DNA from: an uncultured Gammaproteobacteria bacterium
GTDB lineage: Bacteria; Patescibacteriota; Microgenomatia; UBA12405
Direction of reading: 5' to 3'
DNA length: 64,000 nt
Assembly: GCA_964448465.1 (NCBI GenBank)
Contig: CAYUVY010000001.1
Span: 25,196-89,195 of the forward strand
Shown here: piece by piece, positions 2,283 to 35,038 of the stretch
Layout: each line of letters begins with the position of its first letter
Numbering within the stretch: position 1 is the stretch's first letter
Position numbers and translations under genes: made by a program
Notes under the pieces: generated by a model
What the model saw: the letters and a program-made list of their open reading frames with translations, nothing else
The model's database searches: none
What the model was told of the DNA's origin: nothing

Positions 2283-2332
2283 CCGATGTCGCTAGATAGC
2301 CAAATTAACTATCAATAAAGTATAATTGTGTT

Positions 2333-7243: not shown

Positions 7244-8750
7244 AAACTTAATTATATTTTTAATCCTGATCTTAGCCAGCCTACTCAGGATATACAAAGT
7301 TAACGTTTATCCGCCCTTACTTTGGGACGAAGCCTCCCTTGGTTACAATGCCTACAGTCTACTAAAAACAGGCAAAGATGAATTTGGTACAATCCTACCC
7401 CTCACTCTTAAGTCCTTTGGAGACTACAAGCCAGCCCTATACGCCTATATAGACATACCTTTTGTGGCCATTTTTGGATTAACCCAGTTTGCGGTTAGAC
7501 TACCTTCCGTTTTGGCCGGAATTCTTACTGTGTACTTAATTTATCTAGTCATAGATTTATATACTAAAAATACTAAACTAGCACTTCTGGCTAGTTTTTT
7601 ACTAGCAACTAATCCTTTTCATATCCTTCTTTCTCGAGGTGCCTGGGAAACAAATCTAGTTTCTACTTTCTTTTTAGCTGCTATATACTTTCTTCAAAAT
7701 AAAAAGTATTTGTTCTCAATCATATTTTTTGTTCTACCCGCCTACACCTATCAATCTGCCAAGTTAACTGCCCCACTTCTGTTTTTAACTACCTTATTAA
7801 TCTACCCAAAAGTAAAAACAGTATACAAATTAGCTATCTTTTTTTGTTTATTTTCTCCGTTAATTTTTCTAAATTTTTTTGGCAAGGATAGTAACCGATT
7901 TAAAACTATGACTATTCTTAGCTATACCCAGCCAGACATCAGTAAAACTAGTATTTTCTTTCCTCAGTTATGGTTTATGACTAAAAATGTATTGATACGC
8001 TATTTTAACCACTTTTCTCCTCAGCTATTGTTTACTCAAGGTGATTGGCAAAACCCCAGGCAATCCGCACCATATACAGGTATCTTGTTGCTAATTACCT
8101 TACCGTTTCTAATAATTGGTTTATTTTCTTCCAAACCAAATAAATTACATCAATTGCTGTTAATTTGGCTATTTTTGGCACCCATACCCAGTAGTCTGAC
8201 CAAAGACATTGTCCAACCTGTTCGTGCTACCTCTTTTATAATACCCCTAGTTTTTTTTACTGCAGTAGGTATCGAAAAAATTCTCAAACACAAGTTCCTC
8301 TTGAGTCTGTTCATTATTGTTTTGGTAATAAATTTAGCATATGTTCAAGAAATGTACTACCAACATATGGTTAAAAAATCACCGCAAGAGTGGCTATTTG
8401 GCTATCAAGAAGCAATCCAGTTTGCACTAAATAAACAATCCGAACAAACTTTTTTTACTAACTTTTATGGACAACCACACATCTATTATGCCTTTGTCTC
8501 CAAGATGGACCCAGTTTATTATCAGTCGCAGATAAAGTTGACAACCACAAGCAACGATGTGGGTACGGTTGACAAACTAAACAGCTGGGAATTTAAGGAT
8601 ATAAATTTTAACCAATACAAAGACTATAAAAATATTACTTTGGTTATGTCAAGAGACGAACTGTTAAGGCAAAACTTGGATTTTGCAATGTTTACACCAC
8701 TTGGTTCTACTGATATTAATTATGCAAATTTTTATGGTTATAAAAAATAA
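7227..8750 (+). CDS. GT-C fold membrane glycosyltransferase (ArnT/PMT_2-like), paralog
   Basis: Motifs LWDEASLGYNAYSLLKTGKDEFG and SRGAWETN are present. Clear paralog of the 8734..10311 gene. Confidence 0.75.
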   Translation: MPMKYKNLIIFLILILASLLRIYKVNVYPPLLWDEASLGYNAYSLLKTGKDEFGTILPLTLKSFGDYKPALYAYIDIPFVAIFGLTQFAVRLPSVLAGILTVYLIYLVIDLYTKNTKLALLASFLLATNPFHILLSRGAWETNLVSTFFLAAIYFLQNKKYLFSIIFFVLPAYTYQSAKLTAPLLFLTTLLIYPKVKTVYKLAIFFCLFSPLIFLNFFGKDSNRFKTMTILSYTQPDISKTSIFFPQLWFMTKNVLIRYFNHFSPQLLFTQGDWQNPRQSAPYTGILLLITLPFLIIGLFSSKPNKLHQLLLIWLFLAPIPSSLTKDIVQPVRATSFIIPLVFFTAVGIEKILKHKFLLSLFIIVLVINLAYVQEMYYQHMVKKSPQEWLFGYQEAIQFALNKQSEQTFFTNFYGQPHIYYAFVSKMDPVYYQSQIKLTTTSNDVGTVDKLNSWEFKDINFNQYKDYKNITLVMSRDELLRQNLDFAMFTPLGSTDINYANFYGYKK

Positions 8751-10311
8751 ACAACTTTTAGTAACAGTCATAATCATGATACTGGCTGTATTCCTAAGAG
8801 CATATCATCTTGATACTTACCCTCCAATCAACGCCGACGAGGCTGCCTTAGGTTATAACGCCTACAGTTTGTTGCAAACAGGCAAAGATGAACACGGTGC
8901 CTCCTGGCCTCTCCATTTCCAATCATTTGGAGACTATAAACCAGGTGGCTACATCTATTTATTGTTACCTTTTGTTAAAATTTTAGGATTAAATTCTCTT
9001 GCCTTACGTCTGCCAAACTTGCTTTTGTCGATTCTCTGTATTTATCTAGTGGGGCAAATATCTAGACTTATGTTAAAAAATGATTATGCACAATATTTTT
9101 CCATGTTATTTATGGCTATTTCACCTTGGCACATAATCTTTAGTCGTGGTGCCTGGGAAAGTAGTTTTGCTTTTTCTTTGTTTATTCTTGGTTTATATTT
9201 ATTCCTAAAAAAACAAAAGATAGTTATTACCGCCATCTTTTGGGCCCTTAGTCTATATTTTTATCATTCAGCTAGGGTTTTTCTTCCTTTGTTTTTATTA
9301 AGTTTACTTATTTCTAATATTAAAGATAAAATTGAGTTTAAACGAGTACTATTAATCGGTGTCTTAGTTGCACTTTTAAGTTTACCGGCTTTCGTTTCCT
9401 TTCTTAAAAATAGTGGCACAGCTAGGTTTAACGGTGTTGGCATTTTTGCTGACCTCGGACCAAAAAATCGTGCCGAAGAGTTGCTAAACCAAGATGCAAA
9501 CACAAAACTTATCAACAGAATCACCCACAACTACAGATTACTTTATCTATTTTCTTTTGTAGATAAATATTTATCCCATTTCAACCTAAACTTCTTATTT
9601 ATAGAAGGGGATAGCGTCCCACGCTCTAAACTACCAGACCTTGGGCAAACTAGTCTATTTTTCTTTCCTTTATTTCTTTTGGGTTTATTTGCTTTGACCA
9701 AGCTAGACAGCAAGACAAAAATACTAATGCTTATTTTGTTATTTACCTCTCCCATTGCCTCTGCTTTAACCTTTCAGGCACCTTCTGCCCTTCGCAGTCT
9801 TTATCTTTTGCTTCCTTTGACTTTAATACTTACTCTTGGCTCACTACAACTACTAAAGTATAAAAGGACTTTTTTAACATTATTCACAATAGCCACACTT
9901 TTTAGCACCACCCAGCTAATCTATAGTTATTTCTATCGCTATCCTCGAGAACTATCCTTAGCTTGGCCTTATAGATTCCAGGAAGTAGTTAACTATCTAA
10001 AGACAAATAATTCCAATAACCTACCAGTTTATTTTACAAATACTTACGATCAGCCATATATACTTTACCTGTATTATTCCCAGTACCCTCCTTCCCGAGC
10101 CCAGACTCAAACTAAACTTACCACTCCCGACCAGTTTGGTTTCTCCACTGTCGAAAAGATAGATAACATAACTTTTGAGATTCCCAAATATACTGATATC
10201 GCCTCAAATTCCACCATAGTTGCTTCTAATGAAGTTATTCCAATCCTGCCAAAATTAACTTTTAATTTCGCAAATGGCCAAAATGCGTTTAAAATATATC
10301 AAAAGCCATGA
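8734..10311 (+). CDS. GT-C fold membrane glycosyltransferase (ArnT/PMT_2-like), paralog
   Basis: Motifs NADEAALGYNAYSLLQTGKDEHG and SRGAWESS are present. The N-terminus aligns with the 7227 gene when started at ATG 8734. The track start at 8683 is probably too far upstream. Confidence 0.75.
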   Translation: MVIKNKQLLVTVIIMILAVFLRAYHLDTYPPINADEAALGYNAYSLLQTGKDEHGASWPLHFQSFGDYKPGGYIYLLLPFVKILGLNSLALRLPNLLLSILCIYLVGQISRLMLKNDYAQYFSMLFMAISPWHIIFSRGAWESSFAFSLFILGLYLFLKKQKIVITAIFWALSLYFYHSARVFLPLFLLSLLISNIKDKIEFKRVLLIGVLVALLSLPAFVSFLKNSGTARFNGVGIFADLGPKNRAEELLNQDANTKLINRITHNYRLLYLFSFVDKYLSHFNLNFLFIEGDSVPRSKLPDLGQTSLFFFPLFLLGLFALTKLDSKTKILMLILLFTSPIASALTFQAPSALRSLYLLLPLTLILTLGSLQLLKYKRTFLTLFTIATLFSTTQLIYSYFYRYPRELSLAWPYRFQEVVNYLKTNNSNNLPVYFTNTYDQPYILYLYYSQYPPSRAQTQTKLTTPDQFGFSTVEKIDNITFEIPKYTDIASNSTIVASNEVIPILPKLTFNFANGQNAFKIYQKP

Positions 10312-11099
10312 AAACCAAAAGATTCCACACCTTATCTGTCGCTATCGCCACCTACAACGAAGAAAACTTTATTGGTAGCCTACTAGACCAGATATCAAAC
10401 TGGGCAGAAGAAATTATTATTGTCGATGGCTCCTCCACTGACAAAACTCAAGAAATCATCAAAAAATATTCCAAAGTAAAAGTAATCACCACCAGCAATA
10501 AACCCATTTTTCATATTAATAAACAAATGGCCATAGATGCCTGTACACGGGATTGGGTCTTGCAGTTAGATGCCGACGAGATCCCGTCTGAAAATTTAAA
10601 AAATGAAATTGACCAGCTACTTTCCAATAAGATCATCGAAAAACAAGGCTACTGGTTAAATCGGGCCAACTATTTTTTGGGTAGGTTTCTAAAAAAAGGT
10701 GGTCAATATCCAGATCCCACCTTGCGACTTTACCAACGGGGACTGGGCAGTCTTCCTTGCAAATCAGTGCACGAACAAGCAGTAGTCCAGGGAACCACCG
10801 GGCACCTAAAAAATGATCTTTTACATTACGCCGACCGTTCATTTACACGTTATCTAACCAGACATAATCGTTATACTACCCTAATTTCCCAGGAAATTAC
10901 TAATCCAGATTTTTTTGATTATTTTATCTTAAAACCACATCTTTGGTTTTTAACTACTTACTTCCGCCACAAAGGTTTCCAAGACGGTTTCCCCGGGTTT
11001 GTTTTTTCATTTTTTTCTGCACTCAGATTTCCAATAGCTTATGTTAAATATTGGGAAAATAAAACTACCAAACACATTCAAAGCAATGACTGGCAATAA
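10308..11099 (+). CDS. Glycosyltransferase family 2 (GT2)
   Basis: LSVAIATYNEENFIGSLLDQI...IVDGSSTDKT, with the DADE acidic motif at QLDADEIP. ATGA overlap with the upstream gene. Confidence 0.8.
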   Translation: MKTKRFHTLSVAIATYNEENFIGSLLDQISNWAEEIIIVDGSSTDKTQEIIKKYSKVKVITTSNKPIFHINKQMAIDACTRDWVLQLDADEIPSENLKNEIDQLLSNKIIEKQGYWLNRANYFLGRFLKKGGQYPDPTLRLYQRGLGSLPCKSVHEQAVVQGTTGHLKNDLLHYADRSFTRYLTRHNRYTTLISQEITNPDFFDYFILKPHLWFLTTYFRHKGFQDGFPGFVFSFFSALRFPIAYVKYWENKTTKHIQSNDWQ

Positions 11100-12141
11100 A
11101 CAAAAAATAGTTCAAATAGTTCTACCTCCTCAAACCGATACAAGTAAATTTAGAGGTATAGGTGAATACACCCAACACCTAATTGACCACGTATCTAAAC
11201 AAAAAAAATATCAACTTCTTTTGCAACATGAAATTTCACCCAAGGCAGATTTAATCCACTATCCCAGTTTAGACTTTTTTAAAACCACCTTACCTTTAAT
11301 TTTTAAGCAACCAACTATTTTAACAGTTCACGACGTTATCCCGATAGAATACGCCAATCATTTCCCCGTGGGCCTTAAAGGCAAATTGGCCTGGTTATAT
11401 CAAAAACAACGCTTACAATCTGCAAATTTTATTCTTACCGACTCCCATAGCTCTAAATATAGTTTGCATAGACAAACCGGTTACCCTCTTTCTAAGATAT
11501 ACAATGTTTACCTAGGTGCAGACACCAATTATCATCCGATCCAAAAACTTGAAGCCAAAAAACTAGCTCAAAATTTACACTTACCCGAGCAATTTGTTCT
11601 ATATGTAGGCGATATTAATTGGAATAAAAATATACCCAACTTATTAAATGCCTGCATAAATATTTCAATACCTCTGGTTTTAGTAGGCAAAACTGCTAGT
11701 ACCCCACTAAACGAAGTGCCACATCATCCTTGGACAGAAGATATTCGATATCTCAAAATAATGCAAGAAAAATACCCCAAACTAATTCTTACCCCAGGCT
11801 ACTTAGAAACAAAAACTATTAATGCCTTATACCAACTAGCCTTGTGTTATTGTCAACCTTCTTTTGCCGAAGGATTTGGCCTACCACTGCTACAGGCTAT
11901 GCAGGCCGGTTGCCCCATTGCTTATAGCTACACTACCAGTTTAATTGAAATAGGTAATTATGTGGGGCAAATCTTTAATCCTGAAAAAACAAAGCAAATA
12001 GAAAAATGTGTATTACAATACAAAAACGATCCCAAACTTCGAGAAAATTCCATCAATAGTGGTTTAATCCAAGCCCAAGCTTTCTCTTGGGAAAAAGCTG
12101 CCACACAAACTTTAGCTGTCTATGACTTAGCTATAAAATGA
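11086..12141 (+). CDS. Glycosyltransferase family 4 (GT4)
   Basis: EGFGLPLLQAMQAGCPIAYS is a GT4 C-terminal motif. The internal ATG at 11086 was chosen because the track start at 11041 overlaps the upstream gene by 59 bp. Confidence 0.75.
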   Translation: MTGNKQKIVQIVLPPQTDTSKFRGIGEYTQHLIDHVSKQKKYQLLLQHEISPKADLIHYPSLDFFKTTLPLIFKQPTILTVHDVIPIEYANHFPVGLKGKLAWLYQKQRLQSANFILTDSHSSKYSLHRQTGYPLSKIYNVYLGADTNYHPIQKLEAKKLAQNLHLPEQFVLYVGDINWNKNIPNLLNACINISIPLVLVGKTASTPLNEVPHHPWTEDIRYLKIMQEKYPKLILTPGYLETKTINALYQLALCYCQPSFAEGFGLPLLQAMQAGCPIAYSYTTSLIEIGNYVGQIFNPEKTKQIEKCVLQYKNDPKLRENSINSGLIQAQAFSWEKAATQTLAVYDLAIK

Positions 12142-12944
12142 TTACTACCAACCATTTTTTGAGTGTTATTGTCCCTATTTATAAGCAGGAAAAAACAATT
12201 CAAGAAGACATAAGTCAAATTTTAAACACACTCTCGCTTTTACGCTACGATTTTGAACTAATTGCCGTTGTCGATGGCATTAATGTTGATAATTCCTATA
12301 AAATATTAAAAAAAATAAACAATCCAAAACTAATTGTCACCGGATATTTACACAACAAAGGTAAGGGTAATGCTGTTCGTTTTGGTATGGCCAAATCCAA
12401 AGGTGACTATGTCGCCTTTATTGATTCTGGTATGGATATCGACCCCAACGGTATCTCCATGCTTATAGAACACCTTGAGTGGTATAAAGCCGATATTATC
12501 ATTGCCTCCAAAAATCATCCAGCCTCTATGGTTGTCTATCCTCTACAACGTAAGATTTTGAGTCTAATTGTTCAGACTTATATGCGCTTGTTCTTAGGTC
12601 TAAAGATTACCGATTCCCAAGCAGGACTAAAATTATTTAAACGAAAGGTTTTAGTCGCAGTTTTACCAAGGCTGCTAGTAAAAAATTTTGCTATAGATCT
12701 GGAAATATTAAGTGTGGCAAAATACTTGGGCTTTGACAAAATTTACGAAGCCCCTATTAAACTTAAATATGACTTTAAACCACTTACTCATTCCTCCACA
12801 AACTTAAAGGCTATCAAGCAGTTTGCTATCGACGCCTTAGCAATTTTTTATCGTATATATATTAAGCGCTACTATCGTGATAATAATTATCGGCAGTGGG
12901 TTTTTGATCCTGAACTAAAAATGCGCGTCAATACTGGCCAATGA
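12138..12944 (+). CDS. Glycosyltransferase family 2 (GT2), DPM1-like soluble type
   Basis: LSVIVPIYKQEKTIQEDI...VDGINVDNS. ATGA overlap with the upstream gene. Confidence 0.75.
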   Translation: MITTNHFLSVIVPIYKQEKTIQEDISQILNTLSLLRYDFELIAVVDGINVDNSYKILKKINNPKLIVTGYLHNKGKGNAVRFGMAKSKGDYVAFIDSGMDIDPNGISMLIEHLEWYKADIIIASKNHPASMVVYPLQRKILSLIVQTYMRLFLGLKITDSQAGLKLFKRKVLVAVLPRLLVKNFAIDLEILSVAKYLGFDKIYEAPIKLKYDFKPLTHSSTNLKAIKQFAIDALAIFYRIYIKRYYRDNNYRQWVFDPELKMRVNTGQ

Positions 12945-13924
12945 CACCTGTACCAATTTTTACTATCATTATTGCCGGTCGTAGTCACAATAAACTATTA
13001 GACCAAACTATCTCTGCTTTAAATAAACAAACCTGTAAATCCTATGAGGTAATTATTATTTTAGACAAAGATATAGATTCTACCCAAAGAGAACAAGTTA
13101 TTCCTGCCTTTAAGCGCAACCTTGGAGCAAAAAGAGCCAAAGGGGAAATACTTGCGTTTTTAGACGACGACTCCTATCCGGATCCATTGTGGCTAACAAA
13201 CGCTCTAACGATCTTTAGTACTAACGCACAAACTCTTGCTCTGGGTGGACCAAGCCTTACCCCTCCAGAAAACAACATCCTTCAACAAGCCAGCGGTTTA
13301 ATCTATTCCAGCTTTTTAGGTTCGGGTGGAGCAGGGGACTATCGCAATTTAATTAAACCCGAAAGATATGTAGACGATTATCCAACTGTCAATTTTTTTA
13401 TTCGCAAAAAAATATTTAACCAACTTGGTGGCTTTGACACCAAACATTGGCCAGGAGAAGATACCTTACTTTGTCGAAAACTAATCAAATATCAAGCAAA
13501 TTCCATCTTATATTCTCCTTTGCCCATTGTTTACCACCACCGTCGACCAATTGGACTAAGTTTACTAAAACAAATTAGTCGTTACGGCCAACACCGAGGT
13601 TTTTTTGCCAAAATATATCCCGAAAATAGCCTTAAACTTGGCTACCTTATACCGCCAATATTTACACTATATATCCTAAGTTTATTTTTCTTTCATACCA
13701 AAATATATCTTACCCCCTTGCTTGCCTACGCCTCGCTAGTTCTTGTTAATTTCTTTTTGCAAATCAAAAATAATCTTTGGGCCAATCTGGTTTCCAACTT
13801 ATTTATCCCCTTAGTTCACCTTACCTACGGGTTATTTTTTCTAAAAGGCTTTTTGTTTACCAAAGATTTATTAAGTCAGCCACACACCCTTAATACCAAG
13901 ACTGGTCAATATCAAGGTGGATAA
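12941..13924 (+). CDS. Glycosyltransferase family 2 (GT2) with C-terminal TM helices
   Basis: FTIIIAGRSHNKLLDQTISALNKQT...LDDD is a GT2 signature. Hydrophobic C-terminal segments are present. ATGA overlap with the upstream gene. Confidence 0.75.
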   Translation: MTPVPIFTIIIAGRSHNKLLDQTISALNKQTCKSYEVIIILDKDIDSTQREQVIPAFKRNLGAKRAKGEILAFLDDDSYPDPLWLTNALTIFSTNAQTLALGGPSLTPPENNILQQASGLIYSSFLGSGGAGDYRNLIKPERYVDDYPTVNFFIRKKIFNQLGGFDTKHWPGEDTLLCRKLIKYQANSILYSPLPIVYHHRRPIGLSLLKQISRYGQHRGFFAKIYPENSLKLGYLIPPIFTLYILSLFFFHTKIYLTPLLAYASLVLVNFFLQIKNNLWANLVSNLFIPLVHLTYGLFFLKGFLFTKDLLSQPHTLNTKTGQYQGG

Positions 13925-13939
13925 GGTATACTGGAATTC

Positions 13940-15457
13940 ATGTCTAAGAAAAAACTATCCATAGCTATTTCTTACCCCCCTCTAGAAACCAACAAAGGCA
14001 CAGCCTTTTTATCCCAAAATCGCCAGTTTCAATGGACAAATACAGGAAATTGTATATATCCAGTAATCCCAGCTTATGCCGCTAGTTTGTTAGAAAGAGA
14101 AGGCTACCAGGTTTATTGGGACGACGCTATTGCCGAAAAACTCAGCAAAGATCAATGGCTCAAACGGATATTAGAATTAAAGCCAGACGTCATTGCCATT
14201 GAGTCCAAAACACCTACTATCAAATGGTACTGGCAAGTTATCGATGAACTACGCACCTACCAAACTAAATCCTGGCAACCCACCATAGTCTTGCTTGGTG
14301 ATCATCTTACGGCTCTTCCCCAAGAATCCCTAGAAAATTGCTCTGTAGACCTGGTAATCACTGGTGGCGACTATGATTTTATGTTGCTAAATCTAATGAA
14401 CAACTTGGATCACGGAGAAACCTTAGAACCTGGTATCTGGTACAGGGATGGTAAAACTATAAAAAACACCGGTCCATATGCTTTAAAACACCACAATCTC
14501 GACAGCTTGCCTTTTATTAACCGAGATCTAACTAAATGGGAACTTTATGCCTACAACAATGGCAATTATAAATACACTCCAGCCACCTATATGATGACCG
14601 GACGCGACTGCTGGTGGGGTAAGTGTACCTTTTGCTCTTGGACCACTATTTTCCCCGGTAAGGCATTTCGGTTTTTTACTCCCAAGCGTACTCTTGCCGA
14701 AGTAAAACACGTGGTCGACAATTATAGTATCCGCGAGATTTTTGATGACGCCGGTACTCTCACTCCGGGCGCCTGGATTCATGAATTTACCAAAGGACTA
14801 ATATCATCAGGTCTACACCAAAAGGTTCGTTATGGAGCCAATATGCGCTTTAATGCTGTTGGTGAAAAAGAGTACCAAACCATGGGTGAAGCCCGATTTA
14901 GATTTATGCTCTATGGCCTAGAATCTAGTAATCAAAAGACTTTAGATCTACTTGAGAAAGGTACCAAAACCGAGGACGCCAGAAAGTCCCTAACTTTAGC
15001 CAAAAAATACGGTATGGAACCACACTTAACTATCATGATTGGTTATCCTTGGGAAACTCGTCAAGATGCCCTAAATACTCTAGAAGAAGCCCGAAGCTTA
15101 TTTCGAGACTGCCTGGCCGATTCTATGCAAGCCACCATTGTCATACCCTATCCTGGTACACCGCTATTTAAACAATGCCAAGAAAATAATTGGCTTTTAA
15201 CCAACGATTGGAACGATTATGATATGCGCCAAGCTATCATGAAATGCGACATGGGCACAGAAGAATTAAAAGCCATGGTTCAGAGTTTATTCAAAGGGGT
15301 GCTTACACCAAAATTCTTAACCAAAAAGATTAGTTCTATTCGCAGCGTAGATGACGTTAAGCATCTGGGTAGCTATGCCTATAAGTTTATTAAAAAACTG
15401 AAGGATTTCCCAGTCTACAATGCCAACACTCTCGGTAGTCATACCCACGCTCAATAG
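13940..15457 (+). CDS. B12-binding-domain radical SAM-like enzyme (class B-like), function unknown
   Basis: N-terminal Rossmann-like B12-binding-type domain (KPDVIAIESKTPT...IVLLGDHLTALP...LVITGGDYDF). Cys triad GRDCWWGKCTFCSW has Cx4Cx2C spacing rather than the canonical Cx3Cx2C. A downstream GLESSNQKTLDLLEKG motif matches the rSAM core. Locally elevated GC. Confidence 0.65.
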   Translation: MSKKKLSIAISYPPLETNKGTAFLSQNRQFQWTNTGNCIYPVIPAYAASLLEREGYQVYWDDAIAEKLSKDQWLKRILELKPDVIAIESKTPTIKWYWQVIDELRTYQTKSWQPTIVLLGDHLTALPQESLENCSVDLVITGGDYDFMLLNLMNNLDHGETLEPGIWYRDGKTIKNTGPYALKHHNLDSLPFINRDLTKWELYAYNNGNYKYTPATYMMTGRDCWWGKCTFCSWTTIFPGKAFRFFTPKRTLAEVKHVVDNYSIREIFDDAGTLTPGAWIHEFTKGLISSGLHQKVRYGANMRFNAVGEKEYQTMGEARFRFMLYGLESSNQKTLDLLEKGTKTEDARKSLTLAKKYGMEPHLTIMIGYPWETRQDALNTLEEARSLFRDCLADSMQATIVIPYPGTPLFKQCQENNWLLTNDWNDYDMRQAIMKCDMGTEELKAMVQSLFKGVLTPKFLTKKISSIRSVDDVKHLGSYAYKFIKKLKDFPVYNANTLGSHTHAQ

Positions 15458-16427
15458 TCAAAATACTCTTGCCCTTTGTCTAGACAGCCTTTTTAAGCAA
15501 AAATATAGGAACCTGGAGTTAATCATCTGCGACGGAGGCTCTCTTGACCAAACACTTTTAATAGCCAAAAAATATCATGCAATTATCCTAAAAAATACTC
15601 TCAAAACTGCCGAAGCCGGCAAAGCTCTGGGCCTAAAAAAGGCCACCGGTAAATATGTATTATTGCTAGATTCCGACAATATTTTACCAAATTCCAATTG
15701 GCTAGATGAGTTAATAAAACCACTAGACGGCGACCTGGTAGCTATAGGAAGTGAACCCTGGGCTTTTACTTATCGCCCAAAGGCAGGTTTTATCGAGCGT
15801 TACAGTGCCTTAATAGGGGCCAATGATCCATATGCCTGGTTTACCCACAAACTAGACAAAATAAATTATTTAAGTAACACTTGGCCACACCCTGAGCTCA
15901 TAAATGAAGAAAATTCCCAATACTTGACTCTAAAACTAACTAAAAATAAAATTATCCCCACGATAGGAGCCAATGGCACAATTTTCCGCACGAACTTCCT
16001 AAAAAAGCACAGCAATAAAGACTTTTTGTTTGATATAGATATTATTAATCAGGCTGTAAACAAACAAGATTTACTATTTATAAAAACGAAAAATAGCATT
16101 ATTCATACTTATTGCGAGTCGTCTGTTAAAAAATTTATACGTAAACAGACCCGTAGAATGCTAGATTACTACCAATACCAAGCAGTACGCCAGACTTCTT
16201 GGCAAACCACTTCCACCTCCCCAGACAATCTGCTCTTTACTTTATATAGCATATTATTTTTACCTGCACTTGGTACCTGTCTGTATGGTTATTTCAAAAA
16301 GCCAGACAGAGCTTGGTTTTTTCATCCATTAGCTTGTTTTCTTAGCGCTTGGATTTACATTTCTAAATATATACAAAACAAGTTGGGCTTACTAAAATAT
16401 CAAAATAGGTTAAACTGGTCACAATGA
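15420..16427 (+). CDS. Glycosyltransferase family 2 (GT2)
   Basis: LSVVIPTLNSQNTLALCLDSL...CDGGSLDQT, plus an LLDSDN acidic motif. Confidence 0.75.
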   Translation: MPTLSVVIPTLNSQNTLALCLDSLFKQKYRNLELIICDGGSLDQTLLIAKKYHAIILKNTLKTAEAGKALGLKKATGKYVLLLDSDNILPNSNWLDELIKPLDGDLVAIGSEPWAFTYRPKAGFIERYSALIGANDPYAWFTHKLDKINYLSNTWPHPELINEENSQYLTLKLTKNKIIPTIGANGTIFRTNFLKKHSNKDFLFDIDIINQAVNKQDLLFIKTKNSIIHTYCESSVKKFIRKQTRRMLDYYQYQAVRQTSWQTTSTSPDNLLFTLYSILFLPALGTCLYGYFKKPDRAWFFHPLACFLSAWIYISKYIQNKLGLLKYQNRLNWSQ

Positions 16428-17413
16428 AAATAAGTATACTTTTAACTACATACAACGGAGCAAGCTGTATCAAAGAAACAGTTGACAGTCTCTTAAAACA
16501 AAACTATAAAAATTACGAAATAATAGCTCACGACAATAGCTCTAAGGACAACACCGTTGGGATCTTAAAATCCTATAAAAATCCCAAGATTAAGATATAT
16601 ATTAACAAAATTAATTTGGGATACCCCAAAAATCTCGAAGGTGCACGACAAAAGGCTACTGGAGACATTTTGTTCCTCATGGGACAAGACGACTTGCTTG
16701 CAGATGGGGTATTGCAAAAAATCAATGACACCTTCCAAGCTAACCCAGAGATAGGAGCAATAAGTAGACCTTACTACTGGTTTAACCAATCATCACTTAG
16801 ACCAGTACGGGCAAAACCCTATCTTTCCCTAGAAAAAGATATTCTACTAAATTACAAATCCAACCTCAGCGACATATTTTGCTTAATAGACAGTCTAGAC
16901 CAACTTTCTGGATTAGCCTATCGACGCAAGTTTATGACCTCTGGATTCCATCCCGACATATTCCCTTGTCACATCTATCCTTTTTTGGAAATCTTTAAAA
17001 AACACCCCGTAGTATTCCAAGGTGAATACACCATTGCCGTACGTATCCAAACCAGTCAATCTCGTTGGCTCAAGTCAACCTACGAAAAATCACCAATATT
17101 AAGCTGGGTTGAAATGATAAAAAATACATTTAGGGAGCATAAATTTATAAAATTACAAAAAAATATAATAGAAAATTTTGTTGCAAAAAATTACGTTGGC
17201 TTAGTGCAAATTAGAAATTACGGATCATATATTTACCTCCTAAGAGAGGCATATTACCTAATTAAATTTCGACCACGAAACATCTTAGAGCCTAAATTTT
17301 GGTTTTATTTTCTTATGTGTGCTTTAACTCCAAGAAAAATACTTATTGCCATAACCGATTGGTACAAAGATCACCTACTTTCAAAAACAATACACATTAA
17401 AACTATTTCATAA
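16424..17413 (+). CDS. Glycosyltransferase family 2 (GT2)
   Basis: ISILLTTYNGASCIKETVDSL...HDNSSKDNT. ATGA overlap with the upstream gene. Confidence 0.75.
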   Translation: MKISILLTTYNGASCIKETVDSLLKQNYKNYEIIAHDNSSKDNTVGILKSYKNPKIKIYINKINLGYPKNLEGARQKATGDILFLMGQDDLLADGVLQKINDTFQANPEIGAISRPYYWFNQSSLRPVRAKPYLSLEKDILLNYKSNLSDIFCLIDSLDQLSGLAYRRKFMTSGFHPDIFPCHIYPFLEIFKKHPVVFQGEYTIAVRIQTSQSRWLKSTYEKSPILSWVEMIKNTFREHKFIKLQKNIIENFVAKNYVGLVQIRNYGSYIYLLREAYYLIKFRPRNILEPKFWFYFLMCALTPRKILIAITDWYKDHLLSKTIHIKTIS

Positions 17414-17423
17414 ATAAACATCC

Positions 17424-18395
17424 ATGGCTAAAAATACACATAGCAAGGTAACTGTCATCATACCTGCCAGAAACTCCGAAACAACCATAGAACAAACAAT
17501 ATTGTCTTTAAACAAGCAATCTAAATATTTTGGAGAGCTTATCATCGTAGACAACGCATCCACAGATAATACCCTGAAAATTATAAAACAAACAGTTGAG
17601 AAAATAAATACAAACATACTGGTAACAATTATTAATCACCCCAAAGACAAAGGACTTTCCGAAAGTTACAACGAAGCCATAAAAATATCTAAGGGTACAA
17701 TAATCGTAACTTTACATTCTGACATTTTACTAGAGAAAGACGCTCTCGTCTTGTTAACAAAGCCACTATTAGAAAATAGTAATGTCCTAGCCACCACACA
17801 TCAGGTCATCCACCCTCTCAAAATTTGGCTAAACTATAATTTTTGGCAAAAGTCACTTTTTTCCAGACACCTTGGAAAAACGTTATCTGGAATGGATGGA
17901 AAGTTTGATGGTTTTAACAAAAAAGCAATAATTGAAGTGGGATTGTTTGATTCTACATCTTTCCGTACGGCAGGTGAGGACAGTGATATCGTAAACAGAT
18001 TAAAGAAAATAGGGGAGATAATCTATACCAAGGCAACCATCGTCCACATGCATACATATAGTAAAAACTTTAATTTGAATGATTTAATTTATAAGCACGC
18101 ACAATATGCAGAAGCACAAGGTACTTTACTAAGAAAACATGGACCCGTTGGTTTCAAATATATATTAATAGTTTACTTTAGAGAAATACTTATCCTCTCT
18201 TTGCTAATACCATATTTTAGAATAATTTCCTTGGTCCTAATATTAATATACTCATTTTTGTATACAAAAAATACATATATTTACGAACACAAAAATCCGA
18301 GAATAATTATTCTTCCGTTTGTAAACGTATTCCTACTTTTTGTAAGCTTGATATTTACAATCAGAGGCTACTTGCGAAATAAGCAAACTATTTAA
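17424..18395 (+). CDS. Glycosyltransferase family 2 (GT2) with C-terminal TM helices
   Basis: VTVIIPARNSETTIEQTILSL...VDNASTDNT, with a hydrophobic C-terminal region. Confidence 0.75.
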   Translation: MAKNTHSKVTVIIPARNSETTIEQTILSLNKQSKYFGELIIVDNASTDNTLKIIKQTVEKINTNILVTIINHPKDKGLSESYNEAIKISKGTIIVTLHSDILLEKDALVLLTKPLLENSNVLATTHQVIHPLKIWLNYNFWQKSLFSRHLGKTLSGMDGKFDGFNKKAIIEVGLFDSTSFRTAGEDSDIVNRLKKIGEIIYTKATIVHMHTYSKNFNLNDLIYKHAQYAEAQGTLLRKHGPVGFKYILIVYFREILILSLLIPYFRIISLVLILIYSFLYTKNTYIYEHKNPRIIILPFVNVFLLFVSLIFTIRGYLRNKQTI

Positions 18396-18840
18396 ATTTT
18401 ATTGACCAATCGTAGGGAATTTCAGTATTATTTATTGGATCTAGTCTAATAATCTCCTCGGGATCATGGGGTAAAGTTGCGCAATTAGCTACTATAGCCA
18501 CAGGAGAGCTTATTCCTTTAAATCCATTCCAAACCCCAGTAGGAATTGTTACCAAACTATAGTTTTCGGAACCTAAAAATATTTCTTGGACTTCTCCTTT
18601 GGTCTTAGAATTTTCTCTTGGATCATACAAAACTAGCTTGATCATTCCTGAAACAACGGCATAATTTAAAGTCATCAATTTGTGCAAGTGCCAACCCTTA
18701 ACTACCCCAGGGTAAACAGTTGAAAAATATATTTCTCCAAACTTAATAAAATCAGGATCGTCTGATCTTAACATGGGGTAAATAGCCCCTCTTTCGTCCG
18801 GTCGCTTTGTTAATTGTTTAATCCTTACTCCTTCAATCAT
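18388..18840 (-). CDS. RmlC-like cupin nucleotide-sugar epimerase/isomerase (3,5-epimerase or FdtA/WxcM-like)
   Basis: 150 aa. ERGAIYPMLRSDDPDF...GEIYFSTVYPGVVKGWHLH is typical of dTDP/CDP-4-keto-6-deoxyhexose 3,5-epimerase-type cupins. Last gene of the CDP-sugar operon. Confidence 0.65.
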   Translation of the reverse strand: MIEGVRIKQLTKRPDERGAIYPMLRSDDPDFIKFGEIYFSTVYPGVVKGWHLHKLMTLNYAVVSGMIKLVLYDPRENSKTKGEVQEIFLGSENYSLVTIPTGVWNGFKGISSPVAIVANCATLPHDPEEIIRLDPINNTEIPYDWSIKFK

Positions 18841-19753
18841 AATTTTTTAAATAACTCTTAATGGTTAATTTTAAACCATCTTCAATTGCAGTGGTAGGTT
18901 CCCATCCTAGCATGGCCTTTGCTTTTGAAAAGTTACAGCTCAAGAATCTAACGTCTTTGGGTATAACATTCCCCCAGCTAACTATAGGTTTTTTCTTTAA
19001 GTACTTTTCAACCACAGCTACGATTTTTCTGATAGTTACTACTTTTCTATTACCGATCAGAAAAGACTCATATTTGGTATTACTTATACTTGATGCAAAC
19101 TTAATTGCTTTAAGATAAGCCATAACCACATCTCCCACATAAGTAAAACACAATTTTTGCCTACCATCAGACAAACCATACGTGGTGTTATTTATAGTAT
19201 TTATAATAATTTTCGGAACAACTTTGTCGTTGTCAGCCTCACCATACACATATATTGGCTTCAAAGTAATCCCTCTTATTAGACCTCTATCCACTTGGTA
19301 CTTAAAAATATTTTCAAAAGCAATCTTCAGAGCGGCATAGTAATTTAAAGGCTTAAGTATGGAGTTTTCGTTAATAGCTTTTGAGCTCAAAGCATATTCA
19401 AAACAAGTACCGGTATTAATAAAAGCCTTTACTTTTCCAACAATGCACCACTCTAACAATCTAGATGGTAAAACAAAGTTTGATTCAATCATCCGCATTT
19501 TTTCCTCGTAAGTACTCTCGTCTCGCACATAATCAGTTGCCATATGAATCAACACATCCACACCACCTAGTTCAAGTATCCTACGACAATCATCCAAATC
19601 TACAATTAGCTTAACCTTGCTGGATATGTCTCTAATTCTGTCAAATTTTGAGTTAGCACGAGCTAATAAAAATACTTCATAACGCAAATCAACCAACTTT
19701 CTAACCAAGTGACTTCCTACAAAGCCCGTGCCGCCAGTCAACAAAATTTTCAT
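18833..19753 (-). CDS. NAD(P)-dependent sugar epimerase/reductase (SDR), RfbJ/RfbS-like CDP-4-keto-3,6-dideoxyhexose reductase candidate
   Basis: MKILLTGGTGFVGSHLVRKL Rossmann motif and a YAALK YxxxK motif. About 300 aa. Sits directly downstream of the E1 gene. Confidence 0.65.
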   Translation of the reverse strand: MKILLTGGTGFVGSHLVRKLVDLRYEVFLLARANSKFDRIRDISSKVKLIVDLDDCRRILELGGVDVLIHMATDYVRDESTYEEKMRMIESNFVLPSRLLEWCIVGKVKAFINTGTCFEYALSSKAINENSILKPLNYYAALKIAFENIFKYQVDRGLIRGITLKPIYVYGEADNDKVVPKIIINTINNTTYGLSDGRQKLCFTYVGDVVMAYLKAIKFASSISNTKYESFLIGNRKVVTIRKIVAVVEKYLKKKPIVSWGNVIPKDVRFLSCNFSKAKAMLGWEPTTAIEDGLKLTIKSYLKNYD

Positions 19754-20985
19754 AAATATTTTGTCAAAAATTCTTGTGTGGTTTTTACTACATATTCTAT
19801 GTCTTCAACAGAAATACCTGGATAAACACCCAACCAAAAAGCATTATTCATAATCATATCGGCTTTTTCCATCAAACCCACTATTTTATATTTAGACTTG
19901 TGTTCCAAATAGGCCGGATGTCGCAGTAAGTTACCAGAAAATACATTACGAGTGCCTATCATGTGGTTTTCCAAATAGGATGTTAGCTCGTTGCGAGTAA
20001 AAGGAGCCTTTGGTTTAACTAATATGGGAAATCCAAAATAGGAGACATCTTCTTTTGGATTATTTTTTAACAACTTAAAGAATTTTTTATACTTTCCAAA
20101 AAATTCTTCTAACAAATTATAATTACGTTGCCTAATTTTTATAAAATTTGGCAATTTCCTCAATTGGGCTAATCCTATGGCTGCCTGGAAATCTGTAAGC
20201 TTTAAATTAAACCCTATCTCCGAATATATATATTTATGATCATAACCTTCGGGTAGTTCTCCAAGTTTCCAGCCAAATCTCTTGTTACAGGTGTTATCTT
20301 TGCCAGGAGCACACCAACAATCTCTTCCCCAATCTCTAAACTGGCGCATTTTTGTGTGCAATATAGCACTGTTAGTCACCACGGCGCCTCCCTCACCCAT
20401 AGTTATTTGATGTGCAGGGTAAAAGCTATAAGTAGCCATATCCCCAAAGGTTCCAAGCATCTTACCTTTATACTTTGAACCCAAAGCATCACAACAATCT
20501 TCGATTAACCATAAATTATACTTTTTACACAACTTTACAATTTTATCTATCTCAAAAGGCTTACCAAGAGTATGAGCCAACATTATCAACTTTGTTTTTT
20601 TTGTTATATTTTTTTCTATTTGGGAAGTATCAATATTTAGTGTGTCCAAAGAAGCATCAATAAAAATTGGTTTTAGTCCAAACATCAAGGCGGGGTTAAC
20701 CGTAGTGGGAAATGCCACTGCAGTGGTTATAAACTCATCTCCTGCTCTTAATCTTCTTTCTTTAAAAATACGAGAGGTCAAAGTGGCCAATGCCAGCAAA
20801 TTTGCCGAGGAACCAGAATTTACCAAAGAAACATGCCTAACCCCCAAAAACTTCTTAAATTCTGACTCAAACTCCAAAGCGAATCTTCCCTCAGTCCACC
20901 AACCATCTTTTGCTGCTTCAATTGCGTTATTTATTTCCGACTCATCAAAAACTTTCCCAGAAACTTGGATATATTTTCTATTCAT
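19750..20985 (-). CDS. rfbH: CDP-6-deoxy-D-xylo-4-hexulose 3-dehydrase (E1, DdhC/RfbH-type; DegT/DnrJ/EryC1 fold)
   Basis: SFYPAHQITMGEGG has His in place of the PLP-binding Lys, as in E1 and ColD. The Cys pattern DCC-x57-CWC-x7-C matches the E1 [2Fe-2S] motif Cx57CxCx7C as I remember it. Adjacent to rfbF and rfbG. Confidence 0.8.
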   Translation of the reverse strand: MNRKYIQVSGKVFDESEINNAIEAAKDGWWTEGRFALEFESEFKKFLGVRHVSLVNSGSSANLLALATLTSRIFKERRLRAGDEFITTAVAFPTTVNPALMFGLKPIFIDASLDTLNIDTSQIEKNITKKTKLIMLAHTLGKPFEIDKIVKLCKKYNLWLIEDCCDALGSKYKGKMLGTFGDMATYSFYPAHQITMGEGGAVVTNSAILHTKMRQFRDWGRDCWCAPGKDNTCNKRFGWKLGELPEGYDHKYIYSEIGFNLKLTDFQAAIGLAQLRKLPNFIKIRQRNYNLLEEFFGKYKKFFKLLKNNPKEDVSYFGFPILVKPKAPFTRNELTSYLENHMIGTRNVFSGNLLRHPAYLEHKSKYKIVGLMEKADMIMNNAFWLGVYPGISVEDIEYVVKTTQEFLTKYL

Positions 20986-22707: not shown

Positions 22708-22743
22708 ATAAGTTTAGTCAACAAATTAGGAAATATTATAACA

Positions 22744-22770
22744 TTTACAATATCGAACACAATTATACTA
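22744..22770 (+). promoter_or_regulatory. Candidate sigma70-like promoter (TTTACA-15 bp-TATACT) in the 138-bp divergent intergenic region upstream of the GT4 at 22846
   Basis: Hexamers read directly from the sequence. This is an AT-rich context, so chance occurrence is likely. Confidence 0.15.
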
Positions 22771-22845
22771 TATTTGGCAATTTGACCACACGATTAAAGA
22801 TAGAATAGAAATGTTAAAATTGACCAATTAACTAGACAAGAGTTT

Positions 22846-23961: not shown

Positions 23962-23962
23962 T

Positions 23963-25126: not shown

Positions 25127-25154
25127 ACAATTTGTTAATATACAACTAAACTAT

Positions 25155-26371: not shown

Positions 26372-26382
26372 GTATTAGTAAA

Positions 26383-28975: not shown

Positions 28976-28989
28976 AGTCCTAGTATAAT
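28962..28989 (+). promoter_or_regulatory. Candidate sigma70-like promoter TTGCTT-16 bp-TATAAT, ending 6 nt before the wzm ATG; would give a leaderless or near-leaderless transcript
   Basis: TTGCTT at 28962-28967 and TATAAT at 28984-28989, read directly. Only 20 bp separate the divergent genes. Confidence 0.25.
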
Positions 28990-28995
28990 CTATAC

Positions 28996-33153: not shown

Positions 33154-33154
33154 T

Positions 33155-33943: not shown

Positions 33944-33990
33944 TCTTTTTACGAATTAAGACCGATACGAAGTAAGTGATAAAATAAACC

Positions 33991-34797: not shown

Positions 34798-35038
34798 AAA
34801 AGAAAACAAAAATTTCTAATATAATATTAGACCTAAGGAGCGAAATAATTCTAAACAGAAAATTAATCTCAAAATTACACCACGAAAAAGAACAAGAAAT
34901 ATCAAGTATTAGAAATGAATTGTTTGAAACTAAACAGACGTTGTCTAGAATATATAATTCAAAAACATGGAAAATCTCTACTGCGTATCAGGGTATTAAA
35001 TCCAAAATATCAAAAATATTTAATAGATAAACAAGCGA

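What the first reader, a model, noticed from the sequence alone, without database searches (positions are those of the whole stretch)
13940..15457. B12-binding-domain radical-SAM-like enzyme with non-canonical Cx4Cx2C cysteine spacing embedded between GT2 genes
The 505 aa protein has an N-terminal cobalamin-binding-type Rossmann domain followed by a radical-SAM-like core. The only clustered cysteine triad is DCWWGKCTFC, with four residues rather than three between the first two cysteines. Class B radical SAM enzymes in sugar pathways usually perform C-methylation or unusual rearrangements. One sitting between GT2 genes here suggests a radical modification of a sugar or of the glycan, for example C-methylation. 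The gene also has noticeably higher GC than its neighbours, which may reflect stronger constraint or separate ancestry. If the host is a reduced-genome organism it probably cannot make cobalamin, so cofactor dependence would be interesting.
Basis: partly seen in the sequence, partly recalled or inferred. Interest (0 to 1): 0.65.

Follow-up and report, generated by a model that had tools for sequence, protein, structure and literature searches.

The report
Sugar-cluster radical SAM enzyme, Patescibacteria family
This gene encodes an uncharacterised radical SAM enzyme with a B12-type domain, conserved across the tiny-celled Patescibacteria and almost always paired with a membrane glycosyltransferase; its unusual cysteine spacing is real but is already known from enzymes such as OxsB.

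Summary
ORF 13940..15457 (+) encodes a 505-aa protein with a Rossmann-type N-domain, a radical SAM core, and a single Cys triad, C224-X4-C229-X2-C232.

- **Motif.** No canonical CX3CX2C exists in the protein. The spacing is present in 119 of 120 close homologues and 79 of 80 species orthologues. It aligns without gaps to the OxsB cluster motif, so it is a known variant.
- **Fold.** The predicted structure matches MgmA, AprD4, OxsB and TsrM.
- **Family.** The nearest curated family is HpnJ, but at 139 bits against a 578-bit cut-off, so this is not HpnJ.
- **Distribution.** The family is large and, among informatively named records, Patescibacteria-wide.
- **Partner.** A 327-aa synthase-like membrane GT2 (12941..13924) lies directly upstream in 69 of 74 independent loci. 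More distant relatives include GT2–rSAM fusions.

A sugar or glycoconjugate role is well supported by context. The chemistry is unresolved: I lean towards an HpnJ/OxsB-like non-methylating rearrangement over C-methylation. Cobalamin use is unproven.

The raised GC content matches other conserved enzymes in the window and does not indicate foreign origin.

Verdict: a new member of a known kind, of moderate interest.

The parts
13940..15457 (+). Radical SAM gene (505 aa) with a class-B-type architecture. It belongs to a Patescibacteria-wide uncharacterised family.
13958..14467 (+). N-terminal Rossmann-type, cobalamin-binding-like domain (about aa 7-176). The Pfam B12-binding match covers aa 35-142. 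Invariant E88, K90, T91 and P92 lie in the loop after strand 3. Invariant G120-D121-H122 and T141-G142-G143-D144 are also here. The family-specific loop QNRQFQW spans aa 26-32.
   Evidence: In one search, K90 aligns with OxsB N186, the residue beneath the cobalt.
14609..14635 (+). C224-WWGK-C229-TF-C232. This is the CX4CX2C motif presumed to bind the SAM-cleaving [4Fe-4S] cluster.
14600..15088 (+). Radical SAM core (Pfam aa 221-383). It contains the GGE-equivalent F268-D269-D270, G326-x-E328-S329, and G368-Y-P-W-E372.
15161..15400 (+). C-terminal helical region (about aa 408-487), including invariant C413.
12941..13924 (+). Partner GT2 ('GT2c', 327 aa). It has a GT-A domain with a DDD motif, a Q211-x-x-R214-Y215 motif and C-terminal membrane helices. 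Its stop codon lies 15 nt before the radical SAM start codon.
   Evidence: the Q211-x-x-R214-Y215 reading comes from the translation and the invariant columns.
10308..12944 (+). Conserved upstream module in Microgenomates: GT2a (263 aa), GT4 (366 aa) and GT2b (268 aa). GT2b has weak, sub-cut-off hits to ArnC, PpgS, PgfS and AglJ, which are polyprenyl-phosphate sugar synthases.
2333..10311 (+). Five consecutive large proteins of 507-574 aa; two hit PMT or PMT_2, the GT-C type. Four of the five (530-542 aa) are conserved upstream of the module in Microgenomates loci.
15420..16427 (+). Downstream GT2d (335 aa). Its start overlaps the 3' end of the radical SAM gene by 38 nt. It is found in 40 of 49 Microgenomates-type loci.

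Best explanation
The gene encodes a functional radical SAM enzyme with class-B (B12-domain) architecture. It belongs to a large, uncharacterised clade that is sister to the HpnJ-like group and is found mainly in Patescibacteria. It works as a two-gene unit with the upstream synthase-like membrane GT2.

**Shown**
- The cluster and SAM motifs are intact and invariant.
- The predicted fold is that of class-B-type radical SAM enzymes.
- The pairing with the GT2 is conserved.

**Inferred mechanism**
1. The C224/C229/C232 [4Fe-4S] cluster reductively cleaves SAM.
2. The resulting 5'-deoxyadenosyl radical abstracts a hydrogen from a sugar carbon. That sugar is either the membrane-bound product of the GT2 or, less likely, its nucleotide-sugar donor.
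3. The substrate radical is resolved without methyl transfer, by ring contraction, carbocycle formation or a related rearrangement or redox step. This follows what is proposed for HpnJ and shown for OxsB.
4. The modified sugar is then elaborated by the neighbouring glycosyltransferases. In Microgenomates it is passed outward by the GT-C proteins.

**Likelihoods**
I put about 0.75 on the general claim of a sugar- or glycoconjugate-directed radical SAM partnered with the GT2. I put about 0.4 on the specific non-methylating chemistry.
For: - **Motifs.** The CX4CX2C motif and the other radical SAM motifs are invariant. The motif aligns without gaps to the OxsB cluster motif.
- **Fold.** The model (pLDDT 85.8) matches MgmA at E 1.5e-19, and AprD4, OxsB and TsrM at TM 0.57-0.68.
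- **Nearest families.** The best curated matches are non-methylases: HpnJ at 138.8 bits and BchE at 93.7 bits. Methylase models score 71 bits or less.
- **Bridge to HpnJ.** Intermediate sequences score progressively higher against HpnJ, from 191 to 471 bits. They share an N-terminal NRxxxW loop with the query family.
- **Partner position.** The GT2 lies within 600 nt upstream in 69 of 74 independent loci and within 2.5 kb in 73 of 74. This includes Parcubacteria loci that lack the rest of the module.
- **Partner fold.** The GT2 model best matches membrane-embedded synthase-type GT2 enzymes, BcsA and hyaluronan synthases, at TMq 0.61-0.67.
- **Distant relatives.** Proteins 34-41% identical to the query sit next to a Bac_transf phosphoglycosyltransferase or a GT2, inside polysaccharide clusters.
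- **Fusions.** Among relatives about 30% identical, GT2–rSAM fusions exist in both orders (P0245, P0255).
- **Parallel.** In hopanoid synthesis the glycosyltransferase HpnI acts before radical SAM HpnJ (PMC13459092).
- **Importance of the cysteines.** Some homologues carry inteins inserted exactly at C224 or C232.
Against: - No biochemical data exist for any member of the family.
- The HpnJ score is far below its cut-off. HpnJ's own reaction rests only on genetics (PMC13459092).
- The partner GT2 shows no HpnI or Glyco_transf_21 signal. No HpnK-like deacetylase was found among the window ORFs of 120 aa or more.
- Most characterised class-B enzymes are methylases. The top structural hit, MgmA, is a methylase. 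Class-B methylases that act on sugars (GenK, GenD1, MoeK5) are known (PMC9204698, PMC4340712).
- Synteny cannot tell whether the enzyme acts on the GT2's donor or on its product.
Confidence: 0.4

Rival explanations
1. It is a cobalamin-dependent sugar C-methyltransferase of the MoeK5, GenK or GenD1 type. The 5'-deoxyadenosyl radical abstracts a hydrogen from a sugar carbon, and methylcobalamin delivers a methyl radical.
For: - The architecture is class-B, and the top Foldseek hit is the methylase MgmA.
- GenD1, GenK and Sis14 are reported with a Cx4Cx2C motif (PMC4340712).
- HpnJ co-clusters with the methylases Fom3 and MoeK5 in a stringent similarity network (PMC9204698).
- Invariant K90 aligns with the residue beneath the cobalt in OxsB.
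- W225 and W226 lie in the Cys loop, where TokK places Trp215 between its two cofactors (PMC9204698).
Against: - The best curated HMM hits are non-methylases, and methylase models score 71 bits or less.
- The B12-binding signal is sub-threshold.
- The host lineage is not known to make cobalamin: cobS was absent from CPR genomes in one groundwater survey (PMC12023590).
- No cobalamin uptake gene or riboswitch is present in the window.
Confidence: 0.3
2. It is a cobalamin-independent enzyme with a vestigial Rossmann domain, acting on a sugar as a dehydratase, epimerase or oxidase in the manner of AprD4.
For: - AprD4 is the second-best match by both sequence and structure.
- AprD4 and ArsL carry related N-domains but bind no cobalamin (PMC12931638).
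- PF02310 scores below its cut-off and is recorded in only 54 of 120 homologues.
- Cobalamin should be scarce for a Patescibacteria host; this is an inference.
Against: - The Rossmann domain carries many invariant residues at the expected cofactor-facing loops, including E88/K90/T91/P92, G120-D121-H122 and T141-G142-G143-D144.
- The AprD4 model scores 37 bits against a 500-bit cut-off.
- Related loci encode further radical SAM enzymes with strong B12 domains, for example 68 bits in L072. This suggests these organisms do obtain cobalamin.
Confidence: 0.12
3. The substrate is not a sugar. It could be the lipid or polyprenyl carrier, or a peptide, as for lipid-modifying or RiPP class-B radical SAM enzymes.
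For: There are weak hits to ApyD (71 bits) and to the ladderane-type lipid radical SAM family (69 bits). HpnJ-related enzymes act on lipid-linked substrates.
Against: - The consistent neighbour is a glycosyltransferase, and GT2 fusions exist.
- No precursor-peptide or lipid-synthesis genes were found among the window ORFs of 120 aa or more.
Confidence: 0.1
4. It is an inactive relic or pseudoenzyme, and the odd Cys spacing reflects decay.
For: Full-length relatives that lack all three cysteines do exist: P0130, P0133, P0146, P0149 and P0153.
Against: - The motif and all SAM-binding motifs are invariant across hundreds of species.
- The median identity of 58% in Microgenomates-type loci is among the highest in the operon.
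- OxsB is active with the same spacing (PMC9204698).
- The one Cys-less relative whose wider neighbourhood could be read (P0149) sits outside any glycan cluster; the short P0133 contig shows only ABC transporters.
Confidence: 0.02

Closest known systems
[quoted passage not shown]
   Same: It is the best-scoring curated family, aligning over almost the full length (aa 39-476 to model positions 32-456 of 472). The two share the N-terminal NRxxxW loop and the overall architecture. Both act in a pathway with a glycosyltransferase (PMC13459092).
   Different: - The score is 138.8 bits against a 577.6-bit cut-off.
- HpnJ-like proteins carry the canonical CPYxCxFC motif.
- No hopanoid genes are present in the window.
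- The partner GT2 is not HpnI-like.
- The host is Patescibacteria.
OxsB (PDB 5UL2-5UL4), the cobalamin-dependent radical SAM ring-contraction enzyme of oxetanocin A synthesis
   Same: It has the same CX4CX2C spacing, aligned without a gap (RGCDYSRCTFC against RDCWWGKCTFC). The fold is the same, with TMq 0.60-0.66 across the three OxsB entries. K90 aligns with N186, the residue beneath the cobalt.
   Different: - Sequence identity is only 14-16%.
- OxsB is 744 aa and has an extra N-terminal domain.
- OxsB needs the partner OxsA and acts on deoxyadenosine phosphates.
- No OxsA-like HD-domain gene lies nearby.
GenD1, GenK and MoeK5, class-B radical SAM C-methyltransferases that act on sugars
   Same: They share the class-B architecture. 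GenD1, GenK and Sis14 are reported with Cx4Cx2C (PMC4340712). All act on sugars within glycoside or glycolipid pathways (PMC9204698).
   Different: No sequence-level membership could be tested, because no model or reference sequence was available. Methylation is not shown here. Those enzymes belong to actinomycete antibiotic pathways, not to a conserved envelope operon.
AprD4 (PDB 6FD2), a radical SAM 1,2-diol dehydratase that acts on paromamine
   Same: It is the second-best match by sequence and structure (TMq 0.66-0.67). Its substrate is a sugar, and it has a Rossmann-like N-domain.
   Different: The AprD4 model scores 37 bits against a 500-bit cut-off. AprD4 binds no cobalamin (PMC12931638). 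Whether this protein binds cobalamin is unknown.
MgmA (PDB 9CCB), the methyl-coenzyme M reductase glutamine C-methyltransferase
   Same: It is the top PDB hit by sequence (E 1.9e-8, or 1.6e-10 with the family profile) and by Foldseek (E 1.5e-19).
   Different: - Identity is 19%.
- MgmA has the canonical CX3CX2C, so the alignment needs a one-residue gap.
- Its substrate is a protein.
- It is from archaeal methanogens.

Membership tests
Radical SAM superfamily (PF04055) | A score above the Pfam gathering cut-off over the core domain. | tested here: met
   43.1 bits against a 29.5-bit cut-off, covering aa 221-383.
Radical SAM superfamily (PF04055) | A three-cysteine motif for the SAM-binding [4Fe-4S] cluster; the canonical form is CX3CX2C. 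| tested here: met
   The variant CX4CX2C lies at aa 224-232. It is conserved family-wide and aligns without a gap to the structurally validated OxsB motif (PMC9204698). Cluster binding itself was not tested.
Radical SAM superfamily (PF04055) | A partial TIM-barrel fold with SAM-binding motifs (GGE-like, GxES, GxIxGxxE-like). | tested here: met
   The AlphaFold2 model matches radical SAM structures. F268-D269-D270, G326/E328/S329 and G368/P370/E372 are invariant within the family.
Class B (cobalamin-dependent) radical SAM enzymes | An N-terminal Rossmann-type cobalamin-binding domain (PF02310). | tested here: inconclusive
   PF02310 scores 28.8 bits, below its 32.1-bit cut-off, and is recorded for 54 of 120 homologues. 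The fold aligns with OxsB, TsrM and MgmA over the full length. AprD4, which binds no cobalamin, matches equally well.
Class B (cobalamin-dependent) radical SAM enzymes | Actual binding and use of cobalamin. | not testable with these tools
   Only indirect evidence is available: K90 aligns with OxsB N186, and no cobalamin genes or riboswitch occur in the window.
HpnJ (TIGR03471 equivalog) | A score at or above the curated cut-off of 577.6 bits. | tested here: not met
   138.8 bits.
HpnJ (TIGR03471 equivalog) | A hopanoid gene context, with shc, hpnH, hpnG, hpnI and hpnK nearby. | tested here: not met
   A Pfam scan of all 62 listed window ORFs of 120 aa or more found no squalene-hopene cyclase and no other radical SAM gene. 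The partner GT2 gave no HpnI or Glyco_transf_21 hit.
OxsB-type ring-contraction enzymes | A CX4CX2C cluster motif. | tested here: met
   Gap-free alignment.
OxsB-type ring-contraction enzymes | The extra N-terminal domain I and a partner OxsA HD-domain phosphohydrolase. | tested here: not met
   The protein is 505 aa against 744 aa for OxsB, and the alignment starts at OxsB residue 165. No HD-domain gene is present in the window.
Sugar C-methylating class-B enzymes (GenK, GenD1, MoeK5) | Sequence membership of those families, and a methylated sugar product. | not tested
   No reference sequences or models for these families were available in the tools. The motif resemblance rests on PMC4340712.
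AprD4 family (NF033070) | A score at or above the curated cut-off of 500 bits. | tested here: not met
   37 bits.

The most novel reading that the evidence does not exclude
The GT2c–rSAM pair may build a previously unknown envelope glycoconjugate that is common across Patescibacteria. In this reading, a hexose attached at the membrane is converted by a radical reaction into a carbocyclic or ring-contracted head group that resists hydrolysis. This would be analogous to BHT cyclitol ether or archaeal calditol. The organisms involved cannot make cobalamin, so the enzyme would either depend on cofactor scavenged from a host or have lost the requirement altogether.
Probability: 0.12. Interest if true: 0.7.

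Novelty: new member of a known kind. Interest (0 to 1): 0.4.

Why it matters
Little is known about how Patescibacteria build their cell surface, although they are thought to depend on it for attachment to hosts (background knowledge, not tested here).

This radical SAM enzyme and its partner GT2 stand out for several reasons:
- The rSAM gene is among the most conserved in a large glycan operon, with a median identity of 58% (its partner GT2: 48%).
- They persist as a pair even where the rest of the operon changes.
- Some homologues carry inteins at the catalytic cysteines.

Together this marks a radical sugar-modification step that is probably important for the envelope. It also raises a clear and testable question about cofactor economy: does a cobalamin-type enzyme work in organisms that do not make cobalamin?

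The cysteine spacing itself has precedent and is not the interesting part.

Tried and rejected
- **Canonical motif or second copy.** I looked for a canonical CX3CX2C elsewhere in the protein and for a second radical SAM gene in the window. Neither exists.
- **HpnI-like partner.** There was no HpnI hit in NCBIfam and no Glyco_transf_21 hit in 25 family members.
- **Partner as a GtrB- or DPMS-type synthase.** The Foldseek top 50 showed synthase-type GT2 and TarP/RmlT-type enzymes instead.
- **Published motif variants.** The RadicalSAM.org CX7CX2C megacluster (2-5) is ELP3/YhcC and unrelated. Megacluster-4-11 (CX4CX2C) could not be tied to this family.
- **Cobalamin riboswitch or other RNA.** There were no Rfam hits in the window.
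- **Cobalamin uptake or synthesis genes.** None were found among all 62 listed ORFs of 120 aa or more. The rest of the genome could not be searched.
- **Foreign origin from GC content.** Rejected, because the pattern fits other conserved enzymes and synteny is stable.
- **Literature.** No paper on this Patescibacteria family was found. The calditol synthase paper PMC6305003 is not held, so Cds could not be compared.
Full report
**1. Observation**

ORF 13940..15457 (+) starts at ATG and encodes 505 aa. Its cysteines lie at positions 38, 134, 224, 229, 232, 391, 413 and 436. The only cluster is C224-WWGK-C229-TF-C232, encoded by nt 14609..14635. No CX3CX2C occurs in this protein or in any other window ORF of 150 aa or more, and the window holds no second radical SAM gene.

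Pfam gives Radical_SAM over aa 221-383 at 43.1 bits, above the 29.5-bit cut-off. It gives B12-binding over aa 35-142 at 28.8 bits and E 1.2e-6, just under the 32.1-bit cut-off. The flanking genes are GT2 glycosyltransferases.

GC content is 0.418 against a mean of 0.353 for the window's ORFs (z = +1.95, rank 3 of 61). It is raised at all three codon positions.

**2. The motif is a lineage trait, and it has precedent**

The database holds thousands of homologues: 5,857 with E ≤ 1e-5 among the candidates scored. The top hits are 57-65% identical and, where a source gives an organism name, come from Shapirobacteria, Microgenomates or unclassified Patescibacteria.

RDCWWG[KRQ]C[TA]FCSW is invariant in a 28-sequence alignment. 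CX4CX2C is present in 119 of 120 close homologues and 79 of 80 species-level orthologues, and none of the 120 close homologues has CX3CX2C.

An exhaustive representative search found 410 cluster representatives at E ≤ 1e-30.
- Relatives above roughly 35% identity mostly carry CX4CX2C or a longer CX7CX2C (CWWRKDGGCTFC), although a few at 33-41% already have the canonical spacing.
- Relatives near 30% identity carry the canonical CPYxCxFC.

A combined alignment shows the loop between Cys1 and Cys2 changing length within one clade. That clade shares an N-terminal QNRQFQW / NRxxxW loop.

The spacing itself is not new.
- The OxsB crystal structure has a CX4CX2C cluster motif (PMC9204698).
- GenD1, GenK and Sis14 are reported with Cx4Cx2C (PMC4340712).
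- A profile of the family aligns RDCWWGKCTFC to OxsB RGCDYSRCTFC without a gap.

**3. Fold and family**

The AlphaFold2 model (pLDDT 85.8, pTM 0.88) has a Rossmann-type N-domain, a partial barrel and a C-terminal helical region. Its Foldseek matches in the PDB are listed below.

| Structure | Enzyme | Score |
|---|---|---|
| 9CCB | MgmA | E 1.5e-19 |
| 6FD2 | AprD4 | TMq 0.66-0.67 |
| 5UL2-5UL4 | OxsB | TMq 0.60-0.66 |
| 6WTE / 6WTF | TsrM | TMq 0.62-0.68 |

NCBIfam's best hits are HpnJ at 138.8 bits (cut-off 577.6) and BchE at 93.7 bits. Methylase models score 71 bits or less, and AprD4 scores 37 bits. The protein therefore belongs to no curated equivalog.

Intermediate sequences score progressively higher against HpnJ, from 191 to 471 bits. 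This places the clade beside the HpnJ-like group.

Invariant residues line the expected cofactor-facing loops: E88/K90/T91/P92, G120-D121-H122 and T141-G142-G143-D144. K90 aligns with OxsB N186, the residue beneath the cobalt (PMC13331322).

None of this proves cobalamin binding. AprD4 and ArsL have related N-domains and bind none (PMC12931638). PF02310 is recorded for only 54 of 120 close homologues.

**4. Genomic context**

All genes from 2333 to 18395 lie on the + strand with short gaps or overlaps. The upstream GT2 stops 15 nt before the radical SAM start codon. The downstream GT2 start overlaps the radical SAM 3' end by 38 nt.

A scan of one genome per species found 293 genomes that encode a relative. 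Most informative record titles name Patescibacteria lineages, including Shapiro-, Woese-, Falkow-, Moranii- and Gribaldobacteria and Parcubacteria. A few titles name other taxa, and many carry a placeholder label.

In 82 independent loci I assigned ORFs to window genes by best BLASTP hit.
- The 327-aa GT2 at 12941..13924 ('GT2c') lies within 600 nt upstream in 69 of 74 loci that have enough upstream sequence. It lies within 2.5 kb in 73 of 74.
- This holds in Parcubacteria-type loci that lack the rest of the module.
- In 49 Microgenomates-type loci, the order GT-C-like membrane proteins – GT2a – GT4 – GT2b – GT2c – rSAM – GT2d is largely conserved (GT2d in 40 of the 49).
- The radical SAM enzyme (median identity 58%) and GT2b (62%) are the most conserved genes. 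GT2c is at 48%, GT4 at 42% and the membrane proteins at 33-48%.

GT2c has about 2,000 homologues in the same lineages. Its model (pLDDT 90.3) has a GT-A domain followed by interface and membrane helices. Its best full-length matches are the synthase-type GT2 enzymes BcsA and hyaluronan synthase, at TMq 0.61-0.67. It has an invariant DDD motif and a Q211-x-x-R214-Y215 motif.

More distant clade members are also tied to glycosyltransferases.
- A deltaproteobacterial protein (P0141, 40% identical by the representative search) overlaps a Bac_transf phosphoglycosyltransferase gene.
- P0126 sits beside a 327-aa GT2, together with PMT, a faint YfhO hit and three other B12-type radical SAM genes.
- P0409 follows a GT2 fragment.
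- P0423 lies between a FAD_binding_6 protein and a GT2, in a Wzy/heptose cluster.
- Among relatives about 30% identical, GT2–rSAM fusions occur in both orders (P0245, P0255).

**5. Mechanism**

Shown: the radical SAM machinery is intact and conserved, the fold is class-B-like, and the gene forms a conserved pair with a membrane GT2.

Inferred: the C224/C229/C232 [4Fe-4S] cluster cleaves SAM. The 5'-deoxyadenosyl radical then abstracts a sugar hydrogen, either on the GT2c product at the cytoplasmic face of the membrane or, less likely, on its nucleotide-sugar donor.

I favour a non-methylating rearrangement or redox outcome, at about 0.4, for three reasons.
- The nearest families, HpnJ and BchE, are non-methylases.
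- The clade shares the HpnJ-type N-terminal loop.
- The glycosyltransferase-plus-rSAM pairing mirrors the HpnI and HpnJ steps of hopanoid synthesis (PMC13459092).

The main rivals are these.
- **C-methylation, about 0.3.** Most characterised class-B enzymes are methylases. The top structural hit, MgmA, is a methylase. GenD1 and GenK share the motif.
- **An AprD4-like, cobalamin-independent reaction, about 0.12.**

The general claim, a sugar- or glycoconjugate-directed radical SAM enzyme, I put at about 0.75.

**6. GC content and ancestry**

The GC rise is real. The GC-richest ORFs in the window include GDP-mannose 4,6-dehydratase (0.449), a hexapeptide transferase (0.430) and an ABC ATPase (0.411). 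The gene keeps the same syntenic position in dozens of species. The rise therefore reflects constraint, not foreign origin.

**7. Cobalamin**

Pfam scans of all 62 listed ORFs of 120 aa or more found no cobalamin uptake or synthesis gene. No Rfam family, including the cobalamin riboswitch, matched the window. One groundwater survey reports cobS absent from CPR genomes (PMC12023590).

Related loci often carry additional radical SAM enzymes with strong B12 domains. They occur in 25 of 82 loci, and the L072 example scores 68 bits for PF02310. These organisms may therefore scavenge the cofactor. The question stays open.

**8. Verdict**

This is an ordinary kind of enzyme belonging to an unstudied, very widespread Patescibacteria family. 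The feature that drew attention, CX4CX2C, has precedent. The more useful finding is the conserved GT2c–rSAM unit. It is a new member of a known kind, with interest 0.4.

Noticed in passing
Homologues P0122, P0123, P0124, P0127, P0128 (not in the window): Some homologues carry 160-420-aa intein-like inserts exactly at cluster-ligating cysteines. P0123's insert lies at C224 (RD|CFPAGT...VHN|CWW). The others have inserts at C232 (CTF|C...N|C[SV]W).
   Followed up: partly
Homologues P0130, P0133, P0146, P0149, P0153 (not in the window); L094-L096: These full-length relatives (31-40% identical) have lost all three motif cysteines. P0149 lies next to FlaA and MazG genes rather than glycan genes. They may be pseudoenzymes or repurposed proteins.
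   Followed up: partly
window 1..64000: The whole window is one glycan-synthesis island, with roughly 30 glycosyltransferase genes (GT2, GT4, GT-C-like) and almost nothing else.
   Followed up: partly
window 18388..22707 (- strand): This is a set of CDP-3,6-dideoxyhexose pathway genes. It comprises an RfbF-like nucleotidyltransferase, an RfbG-like 4,6-dehydratase, RfbH (620 bits against a 423-bit cut-off), an SDR and a small epimerase-like protein.
   Followed up: partly
window 2333..10311 (+): Five consecutive large proteins of 507-574 aa lie here. Two hit PMT or PMT_2 (GT-C), and three have no Pfam family apart from one weak DUF7649 hit. Four of them (530-542 aa) are conserved upstream of the radical SAM module in Microgenomates loci.
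   Followed up: partly
window 28996..30529 (+): This is an ABC-2 permease and ATPase pair, resembling a Wzm/Wzt polysaccharide exporter. Both genes have raised GC, at 0.377 and 0.411.
   Followed up: no
window 36799..39395 (+): An MBOAT protein is followed by an AlgX-like SGNH-domain protein. This looks like a polysaccharide O-acetylation pair.
   Followed up: no
window 33991..34797 (+): This ORF hits Glyco_transf_17 (E 1.5e-30), a family best known from the eukaryotic GnT-III enzyme. It has the lowest GC in the window, at 0.283.
   Followed up: no
window 43721..45622 (-): This 633-aa protein fuses an NAD-dependent epimerase/dehydratase domain to a GFO/IDH/MocA oxidoreductase domain.
   Followed up: no
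Related loci, e.g. L007-L010, L012, L044, L072 16337..17848, L088: Additional class-B radical SAM paralogues (21-29% identical) cluster near the orthologue in 25 of 82 loci; the L072 and L088 copies have strong B12-binding domains. L088 has four radical SAM genes in about 10 kb. The window has only one.
   Followed up: partly
L072 5600..9762: In a Falkowbacteria locus, UDP-glucose dehydrogenase lies directly upstream of the GT2c–rSAM pair, preceded in turn by a UXS-like SDR, a GT2 and a Wzx-like flippase. This hints at UDP-GlcA or UDP-Xyl as the donor.
   Followed up: no
L092/L093 6351..7001: A 216-aa FAD_binding_6 protein ends exactly where the radical SAM homologue P0423 starts. It is a candidate dedicated reductase. 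No such gene lies beside the window copy.
   Followed up: no
L017, L022, L024, L025, L030 and others: Many loci are fully syntenic with Shapirobacteria loci, yet their record titles read 'uncultured Gammaproteobacteria', 'Bdellovibrionales', 'Methanoperedens' or 'Clostridia'. These are probably placeholder or mis-binned labels.
   Followed up: no
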